From a virus: DNA of 64,000 nucleotides. Shown here piece by piece: positions 1 to 49,471 of the stretch. Positions within the stretch are counted from its first letter, which is position 1; the number at the start of each line of letters is the position of its first letter. The position numbers and the translations under genes were made by a program. The DNA is taken from positions 1 through 64,000 of IMG/VR virus record IMGVR_UViG_3300010883_000007; one strand, given 5' to 3'. The notes beneath the pieces are model-generated. The model did no database searches. It saw nothing but the letters and a program-made list of their open reading frames with translations, and was not told the origin of the DNA.

Positions 1-36
1 CTTGTCGTCCTGCTTGTCGTCCTGCTTGTCGTCCTG
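1..36. repeat. 12-bp tandem repeat CTTGTCGTCCTG x3 (encodes QDDK repeats on the minus strand)
   Basis: Exact copies at 1-12, 13-24 and 25-36; may continue beyond the window. Confidence 0.9.
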
Positions 37-108
37 CTCAAGGAGGATCTGGGCTAAGGCCCAGCGGACCTGCTTTCTAATGAATTCTTCTGACTGCTTG
101 CTGCTCAT
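1..108 (-). CDS. Partial hypothetical protein running off the window (MSSKQSEEFIRKQVRWALAQILLEQDDKQDDKQDDK...), possibly a protease-processed head protein
   Basis: Not in the ORF track; translated by hand. ATG at 108, open to position 1, ATATTTA motif at 117-123 upstream. The ILLEQ motif resembles T4 gp21-type (I/L)-X-E cleavage sites. Confidence 0.6.
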   Translation of the reverse strand, partial: MSSKQSEEFIRKQVRWALAQILLEQDDKQDDKQDDK

Positions 109-128
109 GACAGGTCTAAATATCCTCC

Positions 129-1352
129 TCACACCGCAGAAGACACAGATGTCATTCCAATCGGAAACTTACCCAAGGGAAGATCAACTCCCCGCCCAAC
201 CTCGTCCCGAAGACACTCCAGATCCTCAGGCGACACATCCAGCAGGAGTGCATCGTGGATCACGTAGAGGGGTATCGCGTTGATACCCAGTTCCTCCAGT
301 CGGTCTGTGAGCTGTGCAAATCCCAACAGGGCCACATCAGCAGCAGTCGACTGGATATAGTGACTCACCAGGATATGGGAGGTGGTGGTGTCAGGACGGA
401 TGGACCTTCCCATCGCGCTGGTTATTGACCCCAACGCGGACAGCTCGTTCTGCAGTTGACTCTCAAGACGTCCCACCGAGAAGTACCTCCGAATCTGACG
501 AATCGCAGTCTTGGCGCTTGACTCACTAGTGAGGAGATCAGTCAGACGACGGCTGGACATCCCGTACAAGGCAGAGATAGTGGCCAACTTGACCTTGTCC
601 CTTGTCATCTCCCCATCGAACAGCGCGCCGCACATGTGAGAGTAGATATCAGTTGGTGCCTCATCCCCCGCCACATAGCGAGCGACCCGAGGCTCCAGTG
701 AGACGAAATCCACTTGAACAACACTGCCGCCCCTGAATCTACTGGAGAGAATATCCCGATATCGGGCGGGGAGTGTGAGGATCGATGGGCCGGTACGAAC
801 AGTCAGCCTGCCTGTGACAGTGGCTGCCTGGTTGTAGGTAATCGGAGGTGCGGTGCTCCCCTCCTTTGGAAGGAACGATCGAAGCGCGGAGGCCACGGAG
901 GGACCCCCCTCTGTCTCGCGGATGTAGCGGTTAATCTTGGCCTGATCAACAGTAGCGGGATTTAATCCCAGAAGCATTCCTCGAGCGCGCAGGTATGTTT
1001 GCCCATATCTGTCCTGGCCTAAGCTACAGAGAACACTCTGAGCTGCTTGAAGTACACTCTGGAGCGCAACCTGAAAGTCGCCTGTGGTCATGACCATCCT
1101 CCATGGGATTCGGACGCTGTGGTCCGGACCGAGGAGAACTTCAAAAGCACGGGCCTGGGCCATGGGGGCAATGCCCGGGATTCGGGTTCCGAGCACAGCA
1201 GCATAGGCCTCCAGCGACTGCAGTGCACTCGGGTCACCCACAGTCCAGGAGTTATCGGGAACACGAGATGACCACTGGCACTCTCCTGTCTCTGGACTGA
1301 CGAGAAGGTGCTTGCCGGCGCCAGTCACAGAACTGAGAATGCAGATTACCAC
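129..1352 (-). CDS. Compact family A DNA polymerase-like protein (polymerase domain only)
   Basis: TVTGRL, motif A DFVSLEPR, motif B RDKVKLATISALYG, HYIQSTAAD and motif C VIHDALLLD. No recognisable exonuclease domain. Confidence 0.85.
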   Translation of the reverse strand: MVICILSSVTGAGKHLLVSPETGECQWSSRVPDNSWTVGDPSALQSLEAYAAVLGTRIPGIAPMAQARAFEVLLGPDHSVRIPWRMVMTTGDFQVALQSVLQAAQSVLCSLGQDRYGQTYLRARGMLLGLNPATVDQAKINRYIRETEGGPSVASALRSFLPKEGSTAPPITYNQAATVTGRLTVRTGPSILTLPARYRDILSSRFRGGSVVQVDFVSLEPRVARYVAGDEAPTDIYSHMCGALFDGEMTRDKVKLATISALYGMSSRRLTDLLTSESSAKTAIRQIRRYFSVGRLESQLQNELSALGSITSAMGRSIRPDTTTSHILVSHYIQSTAADVALLGFAQLTDRLEELGINAIPLYVIHDALLLDVSPEDLECLRDEVGRGVDLPLGKFPIGMTSVSSAV

Positions 1353-17024: not shown

Positions 17025-20000
17025 TTATATCTCTGCACCCTGGTTAGTTACAACAAAGTCGAGGGAGATGAATTCAACAGCACGTGTGGGCTGGAGAAAG
17101 ATCTTTCCGCGAATTGTGTTGTTCTCAACATCAGACTGCGTTGTTGTTGTTGTGTCGATCTGTACCTTAAACCTATCAAGTCCCTGCTGGGCCTGGATTC
17201 GCTGGAGCACGGGATTGACTGCGTTGGCGAATCTGGCCAGTGTCTCCTCACGGTTCGGCTCGAAGAGCAGGGTATTGGCGATGCGTCGAACCCGGCGGCG
17301 AATCTCAATCAGCAGACGTCTCACATTGACCCGGTCCAGCGCGGACTGGGCGGCTTGGAGTGTCTTTTGACCGAAGATTACAACACCTGGTGTGTGGGGG
17401 AAGGATGTGATGGGATTCACATCGCCCTCATACAGTGCATCCATATTAGATCGATTGAGCTTCACCTGTGATTCTACAACAGAAACCAGCGCACCGCGGG
17501 TGAAACCTGCGGGAGCGAACCACGGGTGGGCCACTGCGTCATTCAGAGCGAATGCCCCAAGTACAGCAACTGAGGGTGGACACCGAACATTGGTTTTCGT
17601 TGCCGGATCTGTGATCACGACATCAGGGAAGTATGCAGCCGCGAAAGACGTATCGAGATTACGGGCCTCGAACCTCTCAACAGTGTTACTCACGTCGATA
17701 ATCTGAGCAGCTGAGGAGGTTACGAACTCATTGACTGTATCCTTCTCCTCAATGTCCATCAGCAGGAGCGCATCAAATCTGCCTTCCACAGCATCGATGG
17801 CGTAGTCACTAACTGACTCGTGTCGAATTCCAGGAATGGAGAGCAGCTGAATGTCAACGTCGGCTTTCTCCTCCATCACATCAATTGCCTTTCTATATGC
17901 AGCAATTGTTGGTCCCTTAACACCACCCTGATTAGCAGAATCTCCGAATTCTCGGCGACAGGCTACATCTAGCATCTTGGATTTCGCTACGTCGAAGTGA
18001 TTGACGCCGTTGTACCCTCCCTGGACAGGGAGTGTGAACTTCAGGTACTTCCGAGAGGGAAGGTGGTTGAAGTCCTTGGACGCGTCGAGGAATCGAGTGA
18101 CATCGCGCTGATAGACAGTACCATCAGAATCAGTCAAGGTTGTTGACTTTACTCCGGTTCTCCGGTATACCGCAGCACCCCATCTTGAGTTAATGGGCCT
18201 ATCGTTGGATCCTGTTGATACCTGGATCTGCTCGAGGGAGAAGAAGTTATTGTTGAATCGGTCAGCATCGAGAATAGTACCGCCAGAGTCCACAGTACCC
18301 TCATTATCACCCACTATGACCTTTCGCCAGGTGTCAGAAAAGTTGGGATAGTACTTGAAGTGATTCACCAATGATGGGTCGATCTTCGATCTAGCATTGG
18401 GTCTCGCCTGGTCGTCCTTGACCTCCCACTGGAGACCCCAAGTGAAGTGGGCCTTTACCCTCTTCTTGGGAGAGTCACCAATCGTGAGATGCTCACGCAT
18501 GGGAAGGGGCGGCTGAACTACACTATAAGCAATGTCAACATCCAGACCGTGGGCATCAGATCCCTGACCGGTACTGCCGGTGATAAATCCTTCGAGGTGA
18601 CCTCCGGTTAGCGTTCCGGTTGAACCACTAGTCACCAGGTGATGGGGGCCACGGAAGCCACATGGGAGCGCGGAGGGGTCTACTACAAGATTCTCAACAT
18701 CAGAGTGAACCTCAACACGTACGTAAGAAGAAGCATTCGGGTGTGAACCCTCAATTCTCAACTTCTGGGCACCTGACTTCTGATCAAAGTCGTAGTACAT
18801 ATTCATATCACCCACGACACGGGCTACATAACGCTCTGATGTGGGATCCATCTGCAGCCCACGAAAGCTCTCCAGAACCACAGGATTTCCGTCGGTATCT
18901 GAGAAATCTCGGATCAAGAGGTCGAACTTGCCGTATGTGGCGTTCTCATTATTGCTTGACTGAATGTTCTCAATCGTTATCTTGATCAGACTATTTGGGC
19001 GATCACCGTCATCCAGGGCGTGAAGCCGAAGGAGATTCTTGTTGTTAGCACCAAACTTCTGAGAGATGATCCAGGGAGACTTCGCTGTCTTGAATCTGTC
19101 CTCCCAGTTATCATAATTGGGACTGGTTGCTGTCCCCACATCTCTTCCTTGGCTGCCGGTCACCAGGAGCGCTAGCTCGTTCGCGCGCCCCACAGCGGAG
19201 TCTGCTGTAGCGGCAATTACGTTCGTTCCCGTGAGGGTGAGGTGTGTGGGGTAGACATCAAAGCTCGAGTAGAGGAGATGACCAGCCTGCTCAATCTTGG
19301 TGGGATCCCTGTTTAGAATCTTTGAGATATACTGCGGCGCGGCCGGATCTAGTGAGCACGTAAGAATGTTGGGATACGTGTCCTGCGCCTTGTGGCCATT
19401 GAGCAGCATCACAAAGTTCTGCTGACCGTTTGTGAGGTCCACCGTGCCGTGGCTCGCTCCGGAATCACCCTGGTCAACACCACCAGTAAAGGTAGACGGA
19501 ACATTAACACTAGAATTAGTATTCCAGTTTGCTGCATTACTAAGTGTAATTGTTGAATTTCCTGATGATCCTACTGTATCTTGCGTAATTGTAACTTGTC
19601 CGGATGCCGGATTTGTTGCTGTCACATCAAGAGAGCTAGCATTGATTGCGGTGAAAAGTGCTGTAGCGAAACCGGCACCTCCCGATCCATCAACGGCCGT
19701 CGCACCAGCTGTTACAACCCCGTCATTAGTATCATCAACTTCAAATACTACTGACGTTGCGCCGGCATCTACTATTGCTATTGTAGTTTCTTCATTCGGC
19801 TTGTCGCTAAAAGTAAATGTTGCAGAACCAGCTACTGCTGTAGCGTCCCCAAACACACCCTTGGCAGACTGGTTGGCCAGTGGATCATTGTTGACTGCAA
19901 ACGTTGAGGACAGTGCCAGAAGGACACCGGAGGGTGCCATCAGCACACCCCTCAAAATTGGGTGGGCTGTGTCAGTCTGAATTCCCGCATCAGCGAGCAT

Positions 20001-20513: not shown

Positions 20514-23500
20514 TTACTCAAACGAAACCCCGCTGTTGGTTACGATGAAGTCCACCGCAATAAACTCCACAGCTCGTGTGGGAACAACGACAATTCGTCC
20601 ATTCATCTTATTTGCCTCGACATCCACCGATGAATTATTGGTGGCATCACAGACAACATTGAAACTCTCGATACCTGCCTGAGCCTGAACCAGTGCTAGC
20701 AGGGGTGTTACCTGATTCACAAATCGTGCACGTGTTGATGAGTTATTCTGCTCGAACAGAAGACGATTGGCAACCTGGACCACTAGTCGTTTCACTTCTA
20801 GAAGCATCCGGCGGACATTAACCCTGTCCAGTGCCGACTTGGCCATCTGGAGAGTCTTTTGGCCAAAGATTACAAATCCTCCGGCGGGAAACACGGCGAT
20901 AGGATTAATCCTAGCGTCATAGAGTGTGTCCCTATCCGCAGAGTTTAGCCTCACGTCGACGTTAGCAACATTTTCCAGAGAGCCCCGGTTGAAACCAGCA
21001 GGAGCGAACCATGGGAATGAGACCTTGTCGTTAAAAGCCAGAGCTCCGAAAGCTGCCACAGAGGCTGGAACCTTAATCGTTGTACCGTTGACAGGATCCT
21101 TCACAAACACATCTGGGAAGTACGTCGCTGCGTAGTTGTTATCCAGAGCTCTAGAGTCTAGCTGCTCAGCGACCTCTCGAACGTCGACCTTATTCTTGTC
21201 ATCGTCGAAGAGGCGATTCTCAGCAGCATCGTACTTGAGGACATCCATCAGGTAGAATGCCATGGAGTAGTCCTTGACCCGCTCCAGGGCATGGTCTGTG
21301 ATAAACGTGTCCCGCATACCTGGAATTGCCAGGATGTTGATGTTGGATGCCATCGGATCTGTTATAATTCTTGTGGCCACGCGGAAGGAGTTCACCACGT
21401 TGTTCTTCTTGCCCTCGCCCATCTGGTTGAGTGTTGCCACAGCCGGAAGGCCGATGTCGACGCTACCCGCAGCCTGTGCCTTTCCTCCAGCATCCGAGGA
21501 GGATGCCCGATCGTTCATCAGGTGTGAGTCCTTATCTAGAATATTAAGACCGTCGAATCCGCCGTAGAACATTGTTGTGAACTTCGCGTACTCAGTGAAG
21601 CGATTGAACACTGTTGAGGACGAGTGAATCAACGTAGCGAGAGAAATACGATTCTTTCTCACACTATCATCAACAACGTACGTCGAGGCGTTGGGATTTC
21701 CGTTCCTGACGTAAGATGATTCAAGCATATGCTCTTTGGCTGTTCCCGACACATCTGTGATATGACCGCTGCTAAGCTGGTTATAAAGAGCCACGCGCGC
21801 GAGAGTGAACTTATTGTTATTAAAGTAGTCTGCACCAGAGCCAGTAACTAGGGTGTCTAGCTTCTGGATTCCGTTGAACTTAGCGTACGCAGAAACTAGA
21901 GGATTTGCCAAGCCACCCTGATTTGCCTTAAGGTTCGCGTTTGTAACAGAACCACCGGGTGCTGAAGAAGTTACTGGAAGACGCTCAAACTTTATCCCCC
22001 AGTAAAGGCGGCTGTCAGCGCGTTCATTAGTTCCCACCTCACCAAGGTAATTAGTGGGTGTTGAGTCCACTGCTCCACGTGTGCACTTAAAACGCATGGG
22101 AAGAGGTGGAACAATTGAACCACTCAATGCCTGAATCTCGTGTGCTAGGGCAGCAAAGTGTCCGGAAATTCTGTTTCGGGACTCACCAAGATTTGTACCC
22201 TTGTTGTCTGTCAAGATATTCTCTTGCAGATCCATCATTGAATCTGAAGTCTTGAGGACAGGGACACCTCGGAAACCGAAGGGCAGAGCATCAGCAGGTA
22301 TTTTCTCTTCCTCGACTGCAGAATTCATGACGATTCGAATTCTTGACGATCGATTAGGGTACTTGCCCCTAATCACCAAGCGTTGCTCGTCCTCATCTGT
22401 AGCATCGAAGTTCCAGTAGACCTTCTTATCACCAATCTTTCGAGCAACATAGCTCTCGTGATTGGGATTTAGACTACACTCTGGGAAGGCTTCTATAATC
22501 TCCTTGTTGTGATCAGTGTCACTAAACCTGCGAACCTGGACCTCGAAAATACCAAAGTCGTTATTGGGATCCACTGACGCACGGAGGTTAGCAATTGAGA
22601 CCTTAAACTTATCATTACCCCACGCGCCGTCACTAATAGTCTCGAAGTGAAAGAGATCAAACTCAGTTGATCCATAAGGCTGGGAGATTATTGACGGGGT
22701 TCTTGGTGTTGAGTACCTCGTATCAAATCTTCCGAAGAGGTCGAGGAACGATGTTGAGGTGTCCCCTCCACCAGAAGTTGTATGATCAGATCCGGATAGA
22801 ATCGCAACAGAGCTTGCCACTGTTCCGACTGAAGCAATCTCGTCCTCGACCGCAAAGTCGAGATAGAGGAGGTGATGCTCCTCCTGGAACTTGTGGGGAT
22901 CAGTGTTGAGAATCTTGCCAATGTATTGGCCGTCGTTGGGGTCGAGAGAAGCTGTATAGATTCTCACGCCAGCATACCCCTCATCATTGGCAAAAGATGT
23001 GCCCACTGAAGAGGAGATTGCTAGCTTAAAGTGTCCGCCCGCACCTGATCCTATATCAACCGGAGAAGCAACATCATCAAGCGCAGCGCTGTAATTAGCA
23101 TACTGCTGATCACCGTCGAACACCTCAAGACGAGATCCTGTTGGAGTGAAAAGTACAGCCCGAACGAGGTTAACCTTGTCGTCACCTCCGCGCTCGGCGA
23201 AACTATCATTATCGCTGAACACTGGATAGCCCGCGGGCTCACCGCCGTCTATCGTACGAAGTGCATGTGTTGCGCACAGAAACTGTACAACACCCTTGTG
23301 ACCGCCGAGGATCTTATCATCTACACCCAAAGCTGTCGACACCAGACGAAAACCTGCGTGCTTAACAGTTCCCTCGTTGTCTGTGGTTGTTATATCTGAA
23401 GTTGTCTCATTAGAACCTGCACCCAAGACTCTTATGTAAGTCAGGGATGTTTTGTTCTTAAGAAACTCACGTACAGCGTACGGCCCGAATCGATTTCTGT

Positions 23501-23681
23501 GCAGTGAGCCAAATCTGGCTTCGAAGTCTGCCAGAGATCCCAGCGTTACTGGGACGAAAGCGGGCCCCCTTTCAGCGGTGCCAATTACACCAGCTGGTGT
23601 TCCGAGAGGAGTGGCACGCCTTGCGGAAAGATCTATCTCCTGTTCGAAAAACCCAGGTGATCTGAATGTCTGCTCGGCCAT
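20514..23681 (-). CDS. Tail sheath protein 1 (gp18-like)
   Basis: SPGFFEQEIDLS, GVIGTAERGPAFVP, PWFAPAGFNRG, FGQKTLQ..SALDRVNVRRML, PTRAVEFI. Confidence 0.95.
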   Translation of the reverse strand: MAEQTFRSPGFFEQEIDLSARRATPLGTPAGVIGTAERGPAFVPVTLGSLADFEARFGSLHRNRFGPYAVREFLKNKTSLTYIRVLGAGSNETTSDITTTDNEGTVKHAGFRLVSTALGVDDKILGGHKGVVQFLCATHALRTIDGGEPAGYPVFSDNDSFAERGGDDKVNLVRAVLFTPTGSRLEVFDGDQQYANYSAALDDVASPVDIGSGAGGHFKLAISSSVGTSFANDEGYAGVRIYTASLDPNDGQYIGKILNTDPHKFQEEHHLLYLDFAVEDEIASVGTVASSVAILSGSDHTTSGGGDTSTSFLDLFGRFDTRYSTPRTPSIISQPYGSTEFDLFHFETISDGAWGNDKFKVSIANLRASVDPNNDFGIFEVQVRRFSDTDHNKEIIEAFPECSLNPNHESYVARKIGDKKVYWNFDATDEDEQRLVIRGKYPNRSSRIRIVMNSAVEEEKIPADALPFGFRGVPVLKTSDSMMDLQENILTDNKGTNLGESRNRISGHFAALAHEIQALSGSIVPPLPMRFKCTRGAVDSTPTNYLGEVGTNERADSRLYWGIKFERLPVTSSAPGGSVTNANLKANQGGLANPLVSAYAKFNGIQKLDTLVTGSGADYFNNNKFTLARVALYNQLSSGHITDVSGTAKEHMLESSYVRNGNPNASTYVVDDSVRKNRISLATLIHSSSTVFNRFTEYAKFTTMFYGGFDGLNILDKDSHLMNDRASSSDAGGKAQAAGSVDIGLPAVATLNQMGEGKKNNVVNSFRVATRIITDPMASNINILAIPGMRDTFITDHALERVKDYSMAFYLMDVLKYDAAENRLFDDDKNKVDVREVAEQLDSRALDNNYAATYFPDVFVKDPVNGTTIKVPASVAAFGALAFNDKVSFPWFAPAGFNRGSLENVANVDVRLNSADRDTLYDARINPIAVFPAGGFVIFGQKTLQMAKSALDRVNVRRMLLEVKRLVVQVANRLLFEQNNSSTRARFVNQVTPLLALVQAQAGIESFNVVCDATNNSSVDVEANKMNGRIVVVPTRAVEFIAVDFIVTNSGVSFE

Positions 23682-40804: not shown

Positions 40805-41125
40805 TCACTTTACTAAATATGACGGATGATCACTGAGATCTCGTCGTCGGTTGATAATTTCTTTCTCAGAGGGTCGCCAGCCAGTATTCCATCGACCCAT
40901 ATTGGGCTGGACGAAGTGCAACTCACAGTCCCGGCAGCACTCAACCCTATAATATGCCCTTACGTCATCTGTATCTCTCAATGCTAACTCACACACAGGA
41001 CAATCAAGGGGTACCCAATCGGTGTCTGCGTCGGCCTCGGCGATAAGAAACCCCTGATCGTGAACTCTGGTCCTTGACTCACTCACAGATAACCACAGCA
41101 TTCTTCTCCCGCTGGGAGATCTCAA
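40805..41125 (-). CDS. Small Zn-finger-like protein (start uncertain)
   Basis: CPVC...CCRDC and WNTGWRP. Confidence 0.6.
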   Translation of the reverse strand: MRSPSGRRMLWLSVSESRTRVHDQGFLIAEADADTDWVPLDCPVCELALRDTDDVRAYYRVECCRDCELHFVQPNMGRWNTGWRPSEKEIINRRRDLSDHPSYLVK

Positions 41126-44100
41126 TTATATTGTCTACAGCATCCTTCACAGCATCAACATGTGATATTACCAGAATGTGCTTAAACCAGCGTCGGAGAG
41201 AATCGAGCAGTCGAGTACACGCCTCAATATTCATCTCATCTAGAGCACCAAATCCCTCGTCGATGATGAGGAGATCTGTCTTGGGGAGGGAGCTAACATT
41301 AATAAGGGCTACACGGATTGCGAGGGATGCCATCATCTTCTCCATACCACTGGCACACTCAATAACTCTGCGTGAGTCGCCGTAATCAATGTAGATATCC
41401 ATGTCGTTCGTTCCGGCTTCAGCCTCAAGTTCCACAGTGAAGCCCACAACGCCTTGGAGAATCTTTGAGATCTCCTTATTAATCGAGGGGAGCTGAGATG
41501 CCATTATCTGAAGGGGAATGCCCTTCTTGGAAACAGCCCCCAGGAGGAGCTCGTACATCTTCCACTGTTCAACCAACTCACTGTATTTCTCCTTGTCCTT
41601 CTTATGGAGGGCCATCTCCGCGTCGAGATGGCCGATGGATTCAGTGAGCTTAATGCGTTGCGCGTCGAAGCCGTTAATCTTGTCGTTGATCGTATCCATT
41701 TCCTGCCGGGCTGCGCTGACCTTTTGGGCCTCAGTGGATGTAGAAACCCGGAGTCGCATGCCTTGGAGTTCTCTATCTGCAGCATCGATCAGATCCTGGA
41801 GAACTTTCTTTCGATTGTTCACCCTCGTCAAGTCAAGTCGCTGGTTGGAGAGTTTCAACACAAGATTGTTCTCACGGGTCAGAATCTTATCGTACCTCTC
41901 GATCTTCTCTGTAAGATTCTCCCTCGTTAAGACCTTCAGCGACTTTCTCGATGCTTTGACCTTGTCCAGCGACTCTGTAACTAAACGATCCTGATTATCT
42001 AGCCGCTTCTTGTTCTCGTGGGATGACTTGATGAACTTACAGGTGGGAAATGTGTCACCACACGGAACTTCTTTAAGCAACTTAATAGATTTCTTCTGGG
42101 TCTTGAGAAGCGTCTTTTCTCTCTCGTGAGTGTGACTCAGTTCTACCAAAACACGCTCGAGATCCTGCTGTGCGTCGCGTCGCTGTCGAAGATCGTCAAT
42201 TGGAAACTGATCCTTCACTGTACCAATCGATTTCAGAGTTGACTCAATTTCCCTAATCTTTCCTAGTGAGGTCTGGGATTTGTCTTCCATCCCGTCCAAC
42301 TGTGTTCTAGAGACTACAAGTCCTGATTCCTTCTGACTCACGTCGTCCTCAGTCACTAAATCTTTGTTAGAATGTGTGGCAAGAGCAACTGTGATCTCCT
42401 GAAGCTGCTTTCGATGACGACTGATATTTTCCTCAATCTCACGACGTTCCTTCGCATTCTTTCGCTTGAGTGTGTGCTTCTCAGCTATAAGTGTATCCCA
42501 GTCTCTATCTGGGACGTTTCCCAGGATACTCTTTAGCTCAGAGGAGTCCTCCTTGGCAAGATTTAGAACATCATCAAATATATTGAGATCGAGAAATTTG
42601 GTGAGAATGGCCTTTCGCTGGGTTGCCTTGTGCCTGATGAAGTTATTCATCTCTCCCTGACTTGCTAGCGATGTCATTAGAAAGTCGTCGGCAGTTCCCA
42701 CAATTTGTCTAAGGGTCTTTTCTGTCTCCCGCCTCTGAGCACCGTTCATGTCGACTATCTGGTTGTCTGCCTCATCGATCTCACTCAAGTTGAGGTGAGT
42801 CACTGCATTCTCGTCTCCTCGGCGGGAGGTCTTTCGAACAGACTGCCTCTCAACGAGGTATCGCTTTCCGTTCGCGGTGAGAAAGACTCTTCCAAGACAG
42901 TATCCCTTTCGCATATTAATAATGTGAAGGTTCTTGACGGGCCCGCGGTCTGTAGTATTGAAGAGGGAATACATCATAGTGCCAGGTATAGATGACTTCC
43001 CAGCACGATTCTTGCCAAAGAGACCGAGAATCCCGCCCAGGGCATCAAAGTTAATGATATTTCCCTTGCCGTACGAGAAAGTATTATCAAACTCCATCCT
43101 CTGTACTGACCACTTGATGTTTCGAACAACATCTGTCTTGGATGCGGGCATCACGTATTTAGCTATCAGCCCTTCCAGTCTTTCCCACTGCTCGTCTGAG
43201 ATATCTATTTCTGAGTAATATTCCCTCATCAGGCGAACATGGGTGTTAACATCTCGGAGATCCTCTGTGAAAAAGTCGCCGGCAGCGGTCTTGATTGTGG
43301 ACACGTCAATAGTATGATCATGCTTAAAGACTATCTCTGTGGCATGCTTCTGATTCTTGAGTGCACTGTGGAGGTGCTTTATCTCTGCCTGGGAGATCTG
43401 ACTGTCTGTGCGAACCCTAAACCTTGATAGATTGGGATGTGCCATGGCGCGCGAGACTGTGTCTTTTACATTTCCCGCCCAATCGATCGTGACAAATGGG
43501 CACGAGTGAGGAATCTCGTAGAAGGTGCTGGTGAATGTATCCTTATCCTCAATCTCCCAGAAGAGAAATCCCTTGCCTGGGTCCTCACCATAATTCTGCT
43601 GAATTGTCGATCCGGGATAGGCCACTCGCTTCTCATCGTCCAGATACTGCAGCTTGTGAATGTCGCCCAGGAAGGCAAAATCAAAGTCATCAAAGAATTC
43701 CAGGTCGACGTCACCCTCAATATCCCAATTAATATCGGTTGTTGATCCCTGAACACCTCCGTGGAAGGTGGCTATATTAATCTCACCTGGGACTGGCTTC
43801 ACGTCTGGCCATGTTTCCTCATCAAAACACGAGAAAACACACCAGTTATAGCCTGGAACACCAGTGGGATAAGCCCCGGAGGTCTTATAGAGGTGGAGAT
43901 TGGGATTATCCAGAGCATTAATAATGGGTGATATCGCATCCTGTCGGTGCTTATTCATTATCAGACCATCGTGGTTTCCCAAGATTATGTGGGTCGGAGC
44001 AATGTCCGCCATCTCTGAGAACCACCACGAGAGACAGTCTATTACCTCCGGCGAGATACCCTGTGTCTTGGAGTGAACAATGTCCCCTCCCACAAAGATG

Positions 44101-44222
44101 GCGTCCAGCTTCAGTTCCCTGAAGGTCTCGAACATCTGGCTGAAAGCCTCACGATACTCATCATGTCTCGTGAGGCCTCTCCAGTGTATATCACTTAAAT
44201 GGGCACACCTAAATGTCACCAT
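41079..44222 (-). CDS. Fused SbcD-SbcC (Mre11-Rad50; T4 gp47-gp46-like) nuclease-ATPase
   Basis: N-terminal phosphoesterase motifs SDIH, GGDIVH, GNHD, GDIH, YPGS. C-terminal ABC ATPase GKNRAGKSS, SQGE, coiled coil, ASGME, IIDEGFGALD, ISH. Confidence 0.93.
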   Translation of the reverse strand: MVTFRCAHLSDIHWRGLTRHDEYREAFSQMFETFRELKLDAIFVGGDIVHSKTQGISPEVIDCLSWWFSEMADIAPTHIILGNHDGLIMNKHRQDAISPIINALDNPNLHLYKTSGAYPTGVPGYNWCVFSCFDEETWPDVKPVPGEINIATFHGGVQGSTTDINWDIEGDVDLEFFDDFDFAFLGDIHKLQYLDDEKRVAYPGSTIQQNYGEDPGKGFLFWEIEDKDTFTSTFYEIPHSCPFVTIDWAGNVKDTVSRAMAHPNLSRFRVRTDSQISQAEIKHLHSALKNQKHATEIVFKHDHTIDVSTIKTAAGDFFTEDLRDVNTHVRLMREYYSEIDISDEQWERLEGLIAKYVMPASKTDVVRNIKWSVQRMEFDNTFSYGKGNIINFDALGGILGLFGKNRAGKSSIPGTMMYSLFNTTDRGPVKNLHIINMRKGYCLGRVFLTANGKRYLVERQSVRKTSRRGDENAVTHLNLSEIDEADNQIVDMNGAQRRETEKTLRQIVGTADDFLMTSLASQGEMNNFIRHKATQRKAILTKFLDLNIFDDVLNLAKEDSSELKSILGNVPDRDWDTLIAEKHTLKRKNAKERREIEENISRHRKQLQEITVALATHSNKDLVTEDDVSQKESGLVVSRTQLDGMEDKSQTSLGKIREIESTLKSIGTVKDQFPIDDLRQRRDAQQDLERVLVELSHTHEREKTLLKTQKKSIKLLKEVPCGDTFPTCKFIKSSHENKKRLDNQDRLVTESLDKVKASRKSLKVLTRENLTEKIERYDKILTRENNLVLKLSNQRLDLTRVNNRKKVLQDLIDAADRELQGMRLRVSTSTEAQKVSAARQEMDTINDKINGFDAQRIKLTESIGHLDAEMALHKKDKEKYSELVEQWKMYELLLGAVSKKGIPLQIMASQLPSINKEISKILQGVVGFTVELEAEAGTNDMDIYIDYGDSRRVIECASGMEKMMASLAIRVALINVSSLPKTDLLIIDEGFGALDEMNIEACTRLLDSLRRWFKHILVISHVDAVKDAVDNIIEISQREKNAVVICE

Positions 44223-44227
44223 AACTC

Positions 44228-45196
44228 CTAAATAATTGAACCAGTTTTGATCCCATCAATAATCTCACACAGTCGGTGTGACGACTGCCACAACACTGCT
44301 TCCTGTCTTATCTTACTAAACTGAGCGCGGGAGAGATCCCCCACATCCAGCGCAGGGGGAAGGGCAGCTAGACGAACCCTAATCCCATATGACGATAGGA
44401 CCCGGGCTAAATTGTGGGCCTTAAGTCTCGCATCAGTGTCGAGGGCTAACACAATAGGTGTCTGATTTCTAATAATCTTTCGAAAGAGATTAGAGTCCTC
44501 CGCGAGATACGATCCCAGGAGACACGTCGCGTTGTCGTCACACTTCACCAGGTCGAGTGGTCCCTCGACAACTGTGAGCTCTTTATCCCACCTAATATTG
44601 AGCTCATTGAAGATCACCTGCTTCTTTGGGACCTTCGCATTGAGATACTTCATGTGGGTGGTATCGTCAATTGATCGCGCTGCGTAGTAATTTAGATTCC
44701 CTTCAGCATCGAAAGATGGTATAATAGCTCTGCGCCTGAATCTTCCTTTCGTTGTTGTGCCCACCTTGTAGTACCACAAATCCCGAATGCTCATGCCGCG
44801 GCCGCGGATGTATCGGACTGTTTCCTTCACATCCGGATCTCGGCTGCTCAAGGAGTTGGCTAGAAGCACAAACCCCTGTGGGATCTCAATATCAGGCTCC
44901 TCATCCTCGATGGGGCCCACGGTTGATCGACCTCTGTCGCTCCAACCAAAATCCTTGAGCTCCTCAACATGACTGGGTGCATACTTTCGAAAGAGGCTCG
45001 CAACCTTTCGTCCTTTAAGACCACAGACCCAACAGTGGTAACGACCATCGTCCAGCCTCACCACGAGTTTTCGCTTACTGGAACGTGCATCAGCACAATT
45101 GGGACACTTGACGGCCACATTGACCTGATCCCTGCTGATCTCCACACTACCAAAGGCACGCCGTAAGAGCGCAGCCTTACTCGAAAACAAATTCAT
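44228..45196 (-). CDS. DnaG-like DNA primase (Zn finger + TOPRIM)
   Basis: CPNC...HCWVC, YIRGRG, IIPSFD..G.LNYY.AR, KYLN, VVEGPLD, LALDTDA, DVGD. Confidence 0.85.
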   Translation of the reverse strand: MNLFSSKAALLRRAFGSVEISRDQVNVAVKCPNCADARSSKRKLVVRLDDGRYHCWVCGLKGRKVASLFRKYAPSHVEELKDFGWSDRGRSTVGPIEDEEPDIEIPQGFVLLANSLSSRDPDVKETVRYIRGRGMSIRDLWYYKVGTTTKGRFRRRAIIPSFDAEGNLNYYAARSIDDTTHMKYLNAKVPKKQVIFNELNIRWDKELTVVEGPLDLVKCDDNATCLLGSYLAEDSNLFRKIIRNQTPIVLALDTDARLKAHNLARVLSSYGIRVRLAALPPALDVGDLSRAQFSKIRQEAVLWQSSHRLCEIIDGIKTGSII

Positions 45197-45203
45197 CAGT
45201 AGA

Positions 45204-45233
45204 AGTATACTATGTCTATGTATTGTTGTTCAA
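45204..45233 (-). promoter_or_regulatory. Sigma70-like promoter TTGAAC-N18-TATACT
   Basis: -10 ends 7 nt before the primase ATG at 45196; no SD. Confidence 0.5.
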
Positions 45234-45791
45234 CACGCCTGCAAAAGCCACAACATACGCGTCTGCCATATCATAACACCCGGGCTCCAGAATCTCCTGG
45301 CCTCGTCTAGGGCCGCTCTTAAGCACTTTGAGCGGCCACTGATAATCATCATCGAGACGATTGGAGACCCAGTCCAGGACCTGCTGCTTGGTTGTTTTCC
45401 CACAGACTGCTTCCTTCTGCAGACGGAGACCCACACTCTTTCTTGCAGAGTTCACATTAAGAAACTCAGGTCTTATCTTAAACGTCGATTCGCTCAAGTA
45501 TGAGACCACACCGTTAAATCTGGCCAAGGAAGCTAAGGTCTTGGCAGATGAAAAACCCCTTCGAAAACGCTGTAGATTCTCCTCAACGAACACCCGTTCT
45601 ACAGGATGTTGGCATTGCAACTCCTGGAGTACGTCTAGAACCCGCTGGGCCTTGCTGAAGGTATCTTTCCAACCACTTAGGTGTATACACCCCATTTCAA
45701 CCTTAGATACGCTCTGGTGTTCATCTGTGTATAGAACACACCAGCCAGTCTTAGAGGTAGAAATATCCAGTCCCAAACAGCATAACATCAA
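45216..45791 (-). CDS. RuvC-like Holliday junction resolvase
   Basis: LGLDISTSKTGW, VFVEE, LARFNGVV, KQQV and DMADA give the RuvC acidic tetrad pattern. Confidence 0.8.
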   Translation of the reverse strand: MMLCCLGLDISTSKTGWCVLYTDEHQSVSKVEMGCIHLSGWKDTFSKAQRVLDVLQELQCQHPVERVFVEENLQRFRRGFSSAKTLASLARFNGVVSYLSESTFKIRPEFLNVNSARKSVGLRLQKEAVCGKTTKQQVLDWVSNRLDDDYQWPLKVLKSGPRRGQEILEPGCYDMADAYVVAFAGVLNNNT

Positions 45792-48700
45792 TAATCGATC
45801 CTCAACCTAAAGAGATAACCATCTGAGTCCCTCTTCACAATGGGTTGGGCCAAGTTGGCCCTCCCTATTATATTAAAACTCTCATCGTGAAGATTTACAC
45901 TTGTAATGTAATTAAATTGGGACGCTGTCTCATTGGCATAGTCTGTGGGCTTAAGCGCTTTAAACGTCGGATTGGAGGAGGAATTGACAGATCCCTTGGG
46001 ACAGGGCACGTTTATCTCCAGAACGTGCACGTTGTGCTCGCCTTCGAAACTGGTCGTCCACTCATCAGCTCCGAAGATGGGGATGTTCGGTGTCTTCACA
46101 ACAACAATACCCTCCTCGTAGATGATATTGCCCACAGCGTTCCACGTGGCGTGCTTCGATAGGGAATCTGCCCGATAGAGGCCTCCGTGTCCGTCATCCC
46201 TGAGGGTCACTGCTAAAACACCCCCAGATCCGGTTACACTAGTGTCAGTTACCTGAAACGATCCGCGCCTAATCTGATTCCCATAAAAGAGGTTCGACAC
46301 ATCAAAGAATGCCACCTGATTTGAGGAGGGATCCTTCGTCCTATTCAGGATCGTCAGGATACCAGAGTTGGCTACCCCCGGATCCTCGGGTGGAGCACCC
46401 TCCAGCGAATTGGAAATGGAAACGTCGGTGTTATCCTTTCCTCCCGTGAATGCGGTCACTGTCCTATACAGGTTTGTGAGGTTGTGAGCTATAGCAGTAT
46501 TCCCTATAGTCCCCACTGCCCGCTGATTGAGGGTTACCACTCCGGCGTAATCATCGGTGTCGGTGGCATCTCTGCTGGCCAGGATTAGTCCTGCGTGTCC
46601 GGTGGATCCGTTGACAGCAGATACAAAATTGTCGTAAACAGTATCAGCATCAGAGCTGTTGGCATTGACTAACACCTTACCCCCCTGGACATCACCGGTG
46701 ACAGACTCGACCTCGTACACGAACCGATAGACCTTCGTCACTCTGTCATATGTGTTTGTCACCGCGTTCTTTCGTAATCCCGTTAGACGTATAGTTGCCT
46801 GATCAGCTGTCTTGGTTGGTGTGTAGATAATCTCTGCAGAGGCAGCCTGAGTTCCTATTCCCTGCCTTCCGCGGTTCTCGCTGGTGATATCGATTAACCC
46901 CTCCGGCAGGGATGCAGTGCTTACCATGTTCGAGAGGTTGATGAGACCGTAGTCAACATTTCCAGCGTCATTGACAAATCGATCGATCAGTGAACCGGAT
47001 ACCGGAACTTCGGCCCGGGTGCCGGACTTGAGAAGACCGAATGATGGACTGAACCTTCCGTTGTCACACGGAAGGACTGTGAGATTTCTCTTTCTCAGGG
47101 AAGCATTTCGGTAGAGCCACAGGTTACACAGCTCAGCCGTGTTGGTGGTCACATCAATTGTCGATCCTGTTAGATTGAAGAGACGGGGATAAAGACCGTT
47201 AACAAACTCTCGGGTGAAGTTTGGAAGGTTCAACATGTGACCGCCGACGCCGAATGACAGGGCAACGTTGAAGGGGTCATCTGTGGTTGATCGAACTGTC
47301 TGGAACGGCGTCTGCATCACCTCCCGCTCCTTGGTCTCCTTCACAAAGAAAGGGGGCACGTAGAAGATCAGGTCAGTCGGAAGGGGATCAGGGCCCGACT
47401 GGGCAGACAGGGCAATCTGTTGCAGAGAGTGGTAGGTATTGAATATCTTGAGATCGTGGATCTCAGCCCTCAACGGGTGCGAGAACCTCACCTTGTGTTC
47501 TGCTATATCATTGTGTGTGGCATCCACATTGGACATGTCGTACGAGTCATTCGTGAACATGCTGGTAACGCCCTCACGGTGGGCAGCATTAGCGTTGAAG
47601 AACTGTGCCACAACTCCCGAGCCATCCAGGGTACCATTGTTGGGACCGTCGTAGAAATTACCCACAAAGACAGCGTCCGGATCACCAATCGGAGGTTCGA
47701 AAGCCTGGGGCATCACTGAAGCTGATGGTATTAAAAATGTCGCATCCTCCTTGCCGTCAATCACGAACGATCCCGTGCCGCTATTGACTGAGGCTCCCCA
47801 CCGAATGGCGACATGATGCCAGTGATTCCTCATGAGCGCGTTGTCCTTCGAGAAGAACACAAGGTCGCTGGGAACTTCCTGGGTGCTACTGCCGAGAGTT
47901 GGAAAGGGCTGGCTCACATTATTAGACGTGACCGCAGTGTTCCTGGGGGATGTCTCAGCGCTGTTGCTTAGCTGCAACATTATCCTGAATCCATCAGTCT
48001 TGCCGTTAATATCCTTCGACGAGCCCGAAATCAGGCTCACTGCGTACGAGGAAGACATGTGAATGATCGTGCCCGGATGATACACTGTTCTTCCAGGCTC
48101 AGTGCCACCGGTAAATGTAGACGGAACGTTAACACTAGTACTTGCGTTCCATGCCGCGGCGTTGTCTAGGGTAATTGCAGTATTACCCGCACTTGTTTTG
48201 ACAGCACCTTGTGTGAGTAAGACTACTCCCGCAGAGGGATTTGTAGCTACTATATCCAGGGATGATTGTGCATTAATCTTTGCAGCAAGATCTGCAGCAG
48301 TTCCCGTACCGCCGCCGCCGGCGGCAGCAATTCCACTTACAGCAATATCTCCGAGTCCCCCAGTGAAAGTTGAGGGGACATTTACACTGCACACGCTGTT
48401 CCAGTGAGCAGCGTCATTTACAGTGATTGTAGTATTACCACTTCTACCAGTAGTTGAACCTTGGGTAATGGTTATTGCAGCAGTAGATGCTGATGCTGTC
48501 ATATCTAGCGCAGACTGAGCATTAATCTTTGCAGCAAGATCTGCAGCGGTTCCTGTGGCGCCGCCACCTGCAGCATAGATTCCGTTGAGTGCAATATTGC
48601 CTGCAGAGACACCGTTGTTCTCGTTATCAACTTCAAACGTAACTGAGGTTCCATCACCATCAATCAAATTGATTGTACTGCCTTCGTTAGGTTTGTCAGT

Positions 48701-49471
48701 TAGCGTAAAGGTGGCTGCTGGTGGTTTAAGACCATTATTCTCGTTGTCTATTTCAAAAGCAACCGAAGTTCCATCGCTGTCTAGCAAGGTGACAGTGGAC
48801 TCTTCAGTAGGCTTATCTGAGAACGTGAATGTTGCGGTAGAAGAGAATTTCGAGTCGTTCGGTTCAGACGAATACTTCGGATTGATATAGAAATCGAACG
48901 TGAACTCCTTGTGGGGTGAGTACATGAAGTTGTCGACCTCATTGGTCTCCCCGGAAGAAGTGGCTGCCGGGTATATCATCACAGATCCCGTGGGAGTTGT
49001 GTCGGACGTGAAGAAGTGCAGGGTGTGGTAGTTGGGATACGCCCACTGCAAGCTTGGGTACGTGCTCCGGTACGTGGGAAAGAGGACCTTCCTCACAACA
49101 TTCTTACGAAGAGTGTTGCTGGTCAACTTGAAGGAGGGCTCGAATCGAATGACTTCCACCTTCTTCTGGCGTGCGGGTGAGGCGGAGGAGGAGTTGACTG
49201 TCTCTAGATACTGACTTAGATTACCAGAAATATCAGATGAGCCTCGGGAATCCCTTACTGTCTGGACCCTCAGTTCCTCAATATCAGCTGTTCCCCAGCT
49301 ATCACCACCGTAGTCCTCGAGGGGTTGTGCCTCCTTCTCAATAGTCGAGGCACGAGAGAAGACTTTAACTGACCCTGTCAGTCCTGAGGAAGATGATGTG
49401 AATGTCCGGCGGGGGTTGGTTGTGAGAGTAAATCGTTCAAGATTCTCTATTGGTATTGGTATAATTGCCAT
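45788..49471 (-). CDS. Large baseplate/fibre-associated virion protein with LamG-like segment and nested inserted modules
   Basis: FTFDFYINP...NHWHHVAIRW...FVIDG...IHDLKIFN is LamG-like. C-terminal YITSVNLHD..NIIGRANLAQPIVK is paralogous to 49510..50790. Confidence 0.65.
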   Translation of the reverse strand: MAIIPIPIENLERFTLTTNPRRTFTSSSSGLTGSVKVFSRASTIEKEAQPLEDYGGDSWGTADIEELRVQTVRDSRGSSDISGNLSQYLETVNSSSASPARQKKVEVIRFEPSFKLTSNTLRKNVVRKVLFPTYRSTYPSLQWAYPNYHTLHFFTSDTTPTGSVMIYPAATSSGETNEVDNFMYSPHKEFTFDFYINPKYSSEPNDSKFSSTATFTFSDKPTEESTVTLLDSDGTSVAFEIDNENNGLKPPAATFTLTDKPNEGSTINLIDGDGTSVTFEVDNENNGVSAGNIALNGIYAAGGGATGTAADLAAKINAQSALDMTASASTAAITITQGSTTGRSGNTTITVNDAAHWNSVCSVNVPSTFTGGLGDIAVSGIAAAGGGGTGTAADLAAKINAQSSLDIVATNPSAGVVLLTQGAVKTSAGNTAITLDNAAAWNASTSVNVPSTFTGGTEPGRTVYHPGTIIHMSSSYAVSLISGSSKDINGKTDGFRIMLQLSNSAETSPRNTAVTSNNVSQPFPTLGSSTQEVPSDLVFFSKDNALMRNHWHHVAIRWGASVNSGTGSFVIDGKEDATFLIPSASVMPQAFEPPIGDPDAVFVGNFYDGPNNGTLDGSGVVAQFFNANAAHREGVTSMFTNDSYDMSNVDATHNDIAEHKVRFSHPLRAEIHDLKIFNTYHSLQQIALSAQSGPDPLPTDLIFYVPPFFVKETKEREVMQTPFQTVRSTTDDPFNVALSFGVGGHMLNLPNFTREFVNGLYPRLFNLTGSTIDVTTNTAELCNLWLYRNASLRKRNLTVLPCDNGRFSPSFGLLKSGTRAEVPVSGSLIDRFVNDAGNVDYGLINLSNMVSTASLPEGLIDITSENRGRQGIGTQAASAEIIYTPTKTADQATIRLTGLRKNAVTNTYDRVTKVYRFVYEVESVTGDVQGGKVLVNANSSDADTVYDNFVSAVNGSTGHAGLILASRDATDTDDYAGVVTLNQRAVGTIGNTAIAHNLTNLYRTVTAFTGGKDNTDVSISNSLEGAPPEDPGVANSGILTILNRTKDPSSNQVAFFDVSNLFYGNQIRRGSFQVTDTSVTGSGGVLAVTLRDDGHGGLYRADSLSKHATWNAVGNIIYEEGIVVVKTPNIPIFGADEWTTSFEGEHNVHVLEINVPCPKGSVNSSSNPTFKALKPTDYANETASQFNYITSVNLHDESFNIIGRANLAQPIVKRDSDGYLFRLRIDY
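48104..48835 (-). repeat. Nested duplicated module: outer copy 48104-48835 interrupted by complete inner copy 48356-48715
   Basis: Order N-half A, complete B, C-half A in the translation. Exact 29-bp repeat GCATTAATCTTTGCAGCAAGATCTGCAGC at 48270-48298 and 48519-48547. Confidence 0.92.

What the first reader, a model, noticed from the sequence alone, without database searches (positions are those of the whole stretch)
48104..48835. A protein module inserted inside a copy of itself (Russian-doll nesting) in a virion gene
Seen in the 1227-aa protein: ATFTFSDKPTEESTVTLLDSDGTSVAFEIDNENNG-LKPPA-[ATFTLTDKPNEGSTINLIDGDGTSVTFEVDNENNGVSAGNIA...TAADLAAKINAQS...WNSVCSVNVPSTFTGG]-L-GDIA...TAADLAAKINAQS...WNASTSVNVPSTFTGG. 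A complete 120-codon copy (48356-48715) replaces the VSA loop of an outer copy, so this is nesting and not a tandem duplication. The copies share an exact 29-bp block including synonymous sites, and the pair itself interrupts a LamG-like segment. Short dipeptides recur on both sides of the inserts (GL..GL inner, EP..EP outer), weakly resembling target duplications. Known: T4 gp18 is built from nested insertion domains, and Ig-like domains are shuffled among phage virion proteins. Inference: a frame-preserving domain with adjacent termini is spreading among structural genes and can use itself as a target. This would build extendable stalks on the virion surface and is the best candidate here for an undescribed system. 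No mobilising enzyme is visible, so phage recombination is the default mechanism.
Basis: partly seen in the sequence, partly recalled or inferred. Interest (0 to 1): 0.85.

Follow-up and report, generated by a model that had tools for sequence, protein, structure and literature searches.

The report
Phage surface domain nested inside itself
A 120-residue surface domain of a marine jumbo-phage protein really does sit inside a loop of a second copy of itself, and related phages repeat this up to three layers deep, a way of building multi-domain projections so far reported only once, in a bacterial flagellin.

Summary
In the 1227-aa protein (45788-49471, minus strand) a complete module (residues 253-372) replaces four loop residues of an outer copy (213-247 plus 375-456). 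A profile built only from other phages reproduces this split. In the AlphaFold model the contiguous inner domain and the split outer domain both superpose on the external domain of the phiTE tail sheath (Z 8.8 and 7.9), and on FliD and flagellin outer domains.

Nesting recurs across the family. It uses three different loops, reaches depth three (L013, L006), and is commoner than adjacent tandem copies.

About 80 orthologues lack the insert. The block has foreign codon composition (four-fold GC3 0.30 against 0.56). This supports import and spread among virion proteins (sheath, T7-like fibre, LamG protein).

An active mobile system is not supported. There are no target duplications, no terminal repeats and no enzyme. 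Synonymous sites between inner and outer copies are near saturation. The exact 29-bp block is most likely a short gene-conversion tract.

The closest precedent is Geovibrio flagellin, where D5 is a duplicate of D4 inserted in a D4 loop. I class it as a new variant of a known kind.

Earlier notes of this scan cover only this same genome, not other DNA.

The parts
45788..49471 (-). Host gene, 1227 aa (P0001). It belongs to a family of roughly 800-aa LamG (PF13385) proteins of uncultured marine phages. A virion role is inferred and not shown.
48731..48835 (-). Outer copy, N-terminal part (A1, residues 213-247, three beta strands).
   Evidence: profile 1-35, E 1e-11; pLDDT 83-89 in the full model
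48716..48730 (-). Linker LKPPA (residues 248-252) leading into the inner copy.
48356..48715 (-). Inner complete copy (residues 253-372).
   Evidence: profile 1-120, E 1e-46; superposes on phiTE sheath domain D3 with Z 8.8, rmsd 2.4, 87 aligned
48104..48355 (-). Outer copy, C-terminal part (B2, residues 373-456).
   Evidence: profile 40-120, E 2e-24; together with A1 it superposes on the same phiTE D3 domain, model range 4..242, Z 7.9, rmsd 2.1, 81 aligned
48270..48298 (-). Exact 29-bp block in the outer copy (AADLAAKIN). Probable short gene-conversion tract.
48519..48547 (-). The same exact 29-bp block in the inner copy.
48872..48907 (-). Host LamG strand before the insert (residues 189-200, EFTFDFYINPKY). 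Conserved in orthologues that lack the insert.
48032..48073 (-). Host LamG strand after the insert (residues 467-480, GTIIHMSSSYAVSL). In about 80 orthologues it follows the previous strand after a short loop.
46439..46816 (-). Third, divergent copy of the same superfamily (residues 886-1011), inserted at a second loop. Absent from the orthologues aligned. Its codon composition matches the host gene.
   Evidence: (E 2e-15)
19479..19823 (-). Single un-nested close copy in tail sheath paralogue 2 (gene 17025-20465, residues 216-330). Four-fold GC3 is 0.23 against 0.48 in the rest of the gene.

Best explanation
The stretch encodes two copies of a roughly 120-residue alpha+beta decoration domain. 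The domain has the fold class of the external domain of type-2 tail sheaths and of FliD and flagellin outer domains. One copy is inserted whole into the loop after the third strand of the other copy. Each copy starts and ends at the same point, so it can sit in any tolerant surface loop, including three loops of its own fold. Nesting stacks domains outwards from the host protein, as flagellin stacks D2 and D3, instead of laying them side by side.

Shown: the split layout, the empty orthologous site, the foreign codon composition, the recurrence of nesting elsewhere, and gene conversion between the copies.

Inferred: the nested pair was formed long ago in a lower-GC phage by illegitimate or short-homology recombination. 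It was then imported as a ready-made unit into the LamG loop of the ancestor of this phage and its 92-94% relatives. Since then it has been kept by selection and shuffled by ordinary homologous recombination and gene conversion. No dedicated mobilising machinery is involved. The function is most likely surface adhesion or stabilisation, but this is untested.
For: 1. Layout. An independent profile gives 1-35, then 1-120, then 40-120. A and B pairs have equal nucleotide identity, 67.6% and 67.3%.
2. Fold. The AF2 model has pLDDT 84.2 and pTM 0.72. The same phiTE sheath D3 domain aligns to model 41..163 (Z 8.8) and to 4..242 (Z 7.9, rmsd 2.1). Vibrio flagellins and FliD also align over 1..248. 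Both the inner and the split outer copy therefore take the same fold.
3. Recurrence. The layouts are a a bcd bcd in at least 8 host contexts, aaa bcd bcd bcd in L013, and a b [a b c [abcd] d] c [abcd] d in L006 with 4 of each segment. The layout c[abcd]d occurs in L021, L022 and L025. There are at least 11 nested proteins against 2 with adjacent tandem copies.
4. Empty site. It is empty in about 80 orthologues.
5. Import. Four-fold GC3 is 0.30 against 0.56 (p 6e-8) for the nest and 0.23 against 0.48 (p 4e-5) for the sheath copy. In 54 other loci module GC3 equals host GC3, with a median difference of -0.007.
6. Age. The same-codon fraction at identical residues is 0.45-0.48.
7. Recombination. 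dS between the window and L005 is 0.1-0.3 over residues 161-500 but above 1 on both sides. Of the 32 differences between L005 and L014, 28 lie in the nest. At 10 of 12 consecutive variant sites L014 matches the paralogous outer copy.
8. Purifying selection. dN/dS is 0.15-0.18.
9. No RT, HNH or GIY-YIG was found. There are no target duplications and no inverted repeats.
Against: I could not read model coordinates, so the A1-B2 contact is inferred from superposition ranges and not measured. The AF2 truncation test (B2 removed) lowered confidence overall (84.2 to 72.7) and lost the first A1 strand. A1 still kept pLDDT of about 76, so that test is only weakly in favour. A similarity-profile test of shared ancestry of A1 with B2 was flat for this gene (r 0.03). 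No donor sequence was found; the nearest relatives are 0.36 substitutions per site or more away. The held record is only about 28% of the genome, so an enzyme elsewhere is not excluded. Fold matches are middling (Z about 8-9).
Confidence: 0.72

Rival explanations
1. The nesting arose in place. The resident outer module of this gene was copied into its own loop within this lineage, rather than arriving as a pre-formed pair.
For: Both copies have similarly low GC3 (A1 0.43, inner 0.34, B2 0.32). The copies still exchange sequence by gene conversion. No donor with the same pair was found.
Against: The synonymous sites of inner and outer copies are near saturation, yet the whole block is still compositionally foreign and is confined to a shallow clade at 92-94% identity. 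Outer copies with the 'NEE' signature and inner copies with 'NEGST' recur in unrelated host proteins. This suggests that nested pairs travel as units.
Confidence: 0.17
2. The module is an active in-frame mobile element with its own targeting or mobilising machinery. Candidates are a homing-type, MITE-like or recombinase-guided element that recognises loops of its own sequence.
For: Nested copies outnumber adjacent tandem copies. The a|b site is used most often, with 4-6 residue linkers. There are at least 16 copies in four proteins of this genome. The composition is foreign.
Against: There are no target-site duplications or terminal inverted repeats. No RT, HNH or GIY-YIG was found in 104 kb. 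The copies are only 67% identical in nucleotides, with saturated synonymous sites. The family is rare, with 188 clusters. Three different loops are used, which fits structural tolerance better than sequence targeting.
Confidence: 0.07
3. The AABB order comes from two separate tandem duplications of sub-segments (A to AA, then B to BB), with no true nesting.
For: It gives the same linear order. The equal A and B divergence could result from simultaneous events.
Against: It needs two events here, four in L013 and more in L006, always ending with balanced counts and a well-formed bracket order at three different break points. The model shows A1 plus B2 forming one domain with the same fold as the inner copy. 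Unpaired intermediates would be unfolded.
Confidence: 0.03
4. The layout is an assembly chimera of a repeated region.
For: The source is a metagenome assembly and the region holds repeats.
Against: The same layout appears in independent assemblies from other samples at 92-94% identity (P0003, L005, L014). The copies are only 67% identical, too far apart to confuse an assembler. The reading frame is open throughout.
Confidence: 0.01

Closest known systems
Geovibrio thiophilus flagellin outer domains D4/D5 (PDB 9au6; PMC11532411)
   Same: [quoted passage not shown] That is a self-nested duplicate of the same broad fold class. 9au6 appears among the structural matches (Z 4.4).
   Different: It is a single case, in a bacterial flagellin, one level deep. 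Here nesting recurs in phage virion proteins, at three loops, up to depth three. It comes with signs of horizontal import and gene conversion. There is no detectable sequence similarity to flagellins.
External (additional) domain of type-2 tail sheath proteins, e.g. phiTE sheath D3 (PDB 9cb9/9cba/9cuy; PMC11972413, PMC9230969)
   Same: These are the best structural matches to both the inner and the outer copy (Z 7.9-8.9, rmsd 2.1-2.5, 81-90 aligned). Both are insertion domains on the outer face of a lattice protein. One close copy here sits in a sheath gene.
   Different: The known sheath external domains are single copies fixed in their families. There is no sequence-level relation. Here the domain also occurs in LamG proteins and T7-like fibres.
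FliD D2-D3 and flagellin D2/D3 nested outer domains (PDB 5h5t, 5fhy, 4nx9)
   Same: Similar fold (Z 7.3-8.1). They are built as successive insertions that project outwards.
   Different: There the nested domains are not close sequence copies of each other. No Pfam flagellin family is hit.
T4 gp18 sheath nested insertion domains, and Ig-like domains shuffled among phage virion proteins (Fraser et al., cited in PMC9230969)
   Same: Non-essential surface domains are added to virion proteins by insertion and exchanged horizontally.
   Different: The gp18 domains are unrelated to one another. The Ig-like domains are usually appended or tandem and are all-beta. This module is alpha+beta and nests within itself. 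The point about gp18 rests on my own knowledge and was not tested here.

Membership tests
Sheath-external / FliD / flagellin outer-domain fold class | Three-dimensional similarity of a whole domain | tested here: met
   phiTE sheath D3 gives Z 8.8-8.9 (inner copy) and 7.9 (outer copy). A-1(L) sheath gives 8.4, P. aeruginosa FliC 8.1 and FliD 7.3-7.9. Z values are middling, but the hit list consists almost wholly of phage-tail and flagellar outer domains.
Sheath-external / FliD / flagellin outer-domain fold class | Sits as an insertion in a loop of a host domain, with both ends at one point | tested here: met
   About 80 orthologues join the two flanking LamG strands directly. Sheath paralogue 1 lacks the module.
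Pfam flagellin-type families (e.g. Flagellin_IN PF07196) or any Pfam/PHROG family | Sequence match to the family model | tested here: not met
   No Pfam hit for P0001 at E<=1. None of 8 modules hits a flagellin family at E<=10. No PHROG hit. No PDB sequence hit.
Self-nested duplicated domain (as Geovibrio flagellin D4/D5) | The inner domain is a homologue of the domain it interrupts | tested here: met
   71% (A) and about 60% (B) amino-acid identity. One profile matches both copies.
Self-nested duplicated domain (as Geovibrio flagellin D4/D5) | The two outer halves fold together around the insert | tested here: met
   This holds for the AF2 model only. Single-domain targets align over model 4..242 or 1..249 with 81-96 residues at 2.1-2.9 A. 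No coordinates or experiment were available.
Autonomous or enzyme-mobilised genetic element (transposon, MITE-like in-frame element, homing element) | Target-site duplication or terminal repeats | tested here: not met
   There is one weak 18-nt inverted pair unrelated to the junctions. The junction DNA shares 4 of 6 bases. Other instances show no consistent repeat.
Autonomous or enzyme-mobilised genetic element | Associated mobilising enzyme | tested here: inconclusive
   No RVT_1, HNH or GIY-YIG in the 104-kb record. However, the record is estimated to be 28% complete.
Autonomous or enzyme-mobilised genetic element | Near-identical recent copies | tested here: not met
   67% nucleotide identity, and a same-codon fraction of 0.45-0.48.
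Simple tandem domain repeat | Copies head to tail (ABAB) | tested here: not met
   The order here is A A B B. True ABAB exists elsewhere (P0091, P0095).

The most novel reading that the evidence does not exclude
The module family is a domain-sized selfish or semi-autonomous unit. On this reading, conserved end sequences guide phage recombination to insert it in frame into exposed loops, preferentially its own. Nesting depth would then be a tunable, heritable way to lengthen surface stalks. These stalks might serve as carriers for the glycans that an earlier, unchecked note suggests this phage can make.
Probability: 0.08. Interest if true: 0.9.

Novelty: new variant of a known kind. Interest (0 to 1): 0.6.

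Why it matters
This is a natural and repeated case of a protein domain inserted into itself at three loops and up to three levels deep. It shows that bracket-like domain architectures can evolve and stay foldable. It links phage tail decoration to the way flagellins build outer domains. The sequence family has no database model and could be added to annotation resources. It also offers a tolerant scaffold, with known permissive loops, for display or stalk-length engineering on phage particles. Finally, standard domain annotation would misread such proteins as fragments or partial hits.

Tried and rejected
- tblastn of the protein against 50,697 phage records gave no match.
- Pfam and PHROG scans of the protein and of the modules gave nothing.
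- A profile search against PDB sequences gave only a chance hit at E 1.1. The orthologue profile against PDB gave nothing.
- I tested shared ancestry of A1 with B2 by comparing similarity profiles to 37 single modules. Results were mixed across loci (-0.42 to 0.73) and flat for this gene (0.03), so the test has low power with a 35-residue segment.
- The tree of 68 spliced modules was too poorly resolved to count nesting events.
- The AF2 truncation test without B2 went in the expected direction but was ambiguous.
- I searched for a Maf-type glycosyltransferase (PF01973), on the idea that the modules are glycosylated like flagellin. None was found.
- Literature searches for Russian-doll, matryoshka or nested homologous domains in phages found nothing specific.
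- The antisense ORFs 48102-48407 and 48585-48890 (+) cover different parts of the module and were not pursued. I regard them as by-products of composition.
Full report
**What is there**

The window is the first 64 kb of a 104-kb IMG/VR virus record, estimated to be 28% complete. All large genes lie on the minus strand. The window holds a major head protein, an adaptor, two tail-sheath paralogues, SbcCD, a primase and a RuvC-like resolvase.

The finding lies in the 1227-aa protein P0001 (45788-49471, minus strand).
- A1 is residues 213-247.
- The linker LKPPA is residues 248-252.
- The complete inner copy is residues 253-372 (48356-48715).
- B2 is residues 373-456.

A profile built only from six single modules of other phages hits the protein three times. 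It matches profile positions 1-35 (E 1e-11), 1-120 (1e-46) and 40-120 (2e-24) at a nominal database size of one million. The outer copy therefore lacks only four loop positions, and these are replaced by the linker, the inner copy and one or two further residues. A1/A2 and B1/B2 have the same nucleotide identity, 67.6% and 67.3%.

**Is it nesting?**

Three lines of evidence say yes.

First, the wider family. I cut the module into four segments: a (three strands), b (loop, helix, strand), c (two strands) and d (short helix and last strand). I then scanned 80 related loci and 250 proteins.
- The order a a bcd bcd recurs in at least eight different host proteins.
- L013 has aaa bcd bcd bcd, all three copies full length.
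- L006 reads a b [a b c [abcd] d] c [abcd] d. It has four of each segment in a well-formed bracket order, using the b|c and c|d junctions as well.
- L021, L022 and L025 show c[abcd]d.

Sub-segment tandem duplications would not keep producing balanced, properly bracketed orders at three different break points. Among cluster representatives, at least 11 proteins are nested and only 2 have adjacent tandem copies.

Second, the structure. I ran AlphaFold2 on residues 209-460 with 12 other natural AABB sequences. It gave pLDDT 84.2 and pTM 0.72, with A1 at 83-89.
- The external domain D3 of the phiTE tail sheath aligns to model residues 41..163 (Z 8.8, rmsd 2.4, 87 residues).
- In another entry the same domain aligns to 4..242 (Z 7.9, rmsd 2.1, 81 residues).
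- Vibrio flagellin outer domains and FliD also align over 1..248/249.

A 90-residue single domain can only align over 4..242 if A1 and B2 form one compact domain. In the model, then, both copies have the same fold. I could not read the coordinates, so this evidence is indirect.

Removing B2 lowered overall confidence to 72.7 and abolished the first A1 strand. A1 stayed at a pLDDT of about 76, however, so this test supports nesting only weakly.

Third, independent data. P0003, L005 and L014 come from other samples, are 92-94% identical and have the same layout. This rules out an assembly chimera.

**What the module is**

No Pfam, PHROG or PDB sequence match exists. A profile search of 1.84 billion representatives finds only 188 clusters at E<=0.001. 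The related loci come mostly from marine metagenomes such as TARA.

By fold it belongs with several known outer domains (PMC11972413, PMC9230969):
- the external domains of type-2 tail sheaths (phiTE, A-1(L), Mu, Milano);
- FliD D2-D3;
- flagellin outer domains;
- the outer domain of T7-type nozzle proteins.

In BFVD it matches predicted models of baseplate J-like, sheath, tail tubular B and other phage proteins.

Host proteins of the sequence family include tail sheaths, T7-like tail fibres with RCC1 repeats, and the LamG protein family.

With an iterated profile, this genome holds at least 16 copies in four proteins:
- the divergent third copy in P0001 (residues 886-1011, E 2e-15);
- a 3138-aa protein, with some hits split as in nesting;
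- a 1051-aa protein;
- sheath paralogue 2.

This partly confirms an earlier unchecked note of this scan (e1-5976065).

**Filled and empty sites**

About 80 orthologues of 780-880 aa have no module. In the alignment the LamG strand ending INPKY and the strand GT..H.SSSYAVSL are separated by a short loop in all of them, but by 244 extra residues here. Orthologues carry PF13385 just downstream.

The third copy is also unique to this lineage. P0007 and P0008 carry divergent relatives of the module at other loops.

**History**

At identical residues the inner and outer copies share the codon only 45-48% of the time, so their split is old.

The nest has four-fold GC3 of 0.30 against 0.56 in the rest of the gene (p 6e-8). 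The sheath copy has 0.23 against 0.48 (p 4e-5). The divergent third copy matches its host at 0.51 against 0.56.

In 54 other loci module GC3 equals host GC3, with a median difference of -0.007, and most of those phages are low in GC. The close copies here therefore look imported from a lower-GC phage, and the nest most likely arrived already nested.

Outer copies with 'NEE' and inner copies with 'NEGST' recur in unrelated hosts. P0093's host protein has no similarity to P0001. This fits nested pairs moving as units. L049, L006 and the c|d cases point to further independent nesting events.

**Ongoing recombination**

Between the window and L005 or L014, dS is 0.1-0.3 across residues 161-500. 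It is above 1 on either side and about 0.5 in the rest of the gene. The allele carrying the nest therefore sits in a recombination mosaic.

L005 and L014 are almost identical across the gene, yet 28 of their 32 differences fall within the nest. At 10 of 12 consecutive variant sites (codons 298-324) L014 carries the base of the paralogous outer copy. This is intragenic gene conversion.

The exact 29-bp block lies next to that tract and differs by 1-2 bases in the orthologues. It is best read as a conversion tract, not as a sign of recency or of a DNA signal.

dN/dS of 0.15-0.18 shows purifying selection on the nest.

**Mechanism**

There are no target duplications, no terminal inverted repeats, and no reverse transcriptase, HNH or GIY-YIG gene in the 104 kb.

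The simplest account is rare illegitimate or short-homology recombination that places a domain-sized segment in frame. Only insertions in tolerant surface loops then survive. The module offers three such loops itself, and once formed it spreads by homologous recombination.

Nesting stacks domains outwards, as in flagellin. Tandem copies inside a loop would lie side by side. The idea that outward stacking is selected for is inference only.

**Comparison with what is known**

The closest precedent is Geovibrio thiophilus flagellin. [quoted passage not shown] What is new here:
- the recurrence of nesting;
- the three insertion sites;
- depth three;
- the phage virion setting;
- a sequence family with no database model;
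- the evidence for import and gene conversion.

I rate it a new variant of a known kind, of moderate to good interest. Earlier notes of this scan concern this same genome only.

Noticed in passing
L006:2440-3920 (frame 1, residues 814-1307): Four modules are nested in a branching pattern using two further loops: a b [a b c [abcd] d] c [abcd] d. This is the clearest natural proof that the module tolerates itself at three sites.
   Followed up: partly
L013:2743-3876: Three full-length copies nested one inside another at the same loop (aaa bcd bcd bcd).
   Followed up: partly
window 17025-20465 and 20514-23681 (-): Two tail-sheath paralogues, 37% identical. Only the second carries the module, and that copy has strongly AT-shifted synonymous sites.
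   Followed up: partly
window 45788-49471; L005:2245-5925; L014:2245-5334: The gene is a recombination mosaic. dS against the orthologues is above 1 at residues 41-140 and 481-580, 0.1-0.3 at 161-500, and about 0.5 elsewhere.
   Followed up: partly
L005 vs L014, codons 298-324 of the orthologous gene: There is a gene-conversion tract. In L014 the inner copy carries the outer copy's bases at 10 of 12 consecutive variant sites, while the rest of the gene is nearly identical between the two.
   Followed up: yes
P0004-P0009 (orthologues), alignment A3 columns 77-465: Some orthologues carry a different insert of roughly 250 residues near the N-terminus. P0007 and P0008 have divergent relatives of the module at other loops of the same protein.
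   Followed up: no
genome 62504-71917 and 71921-75073 (-), partly beyond the window: A 3138-aa and a 1051-aa protein carry about 8-10 and 3 divergent copies of the module superfamily. Some hits are split as in nesting.
   Followed up: partly
window 48102-48407 and 48585-48890 (+): Two 101-codon antisense open frames lie over the nested region. They cover different parts of the module and are probably by-products of composition.
   Followed up: no
window 41079-45791 (-): An SbcCD-like fusion (1047 aa), a primase (322 aa) and a RuvC-like resolvase (191 aa) lie directly downstream of the module-bearing gene. These are recombination and repair functions, but nothing links them to the inserts.
   Followed up: no
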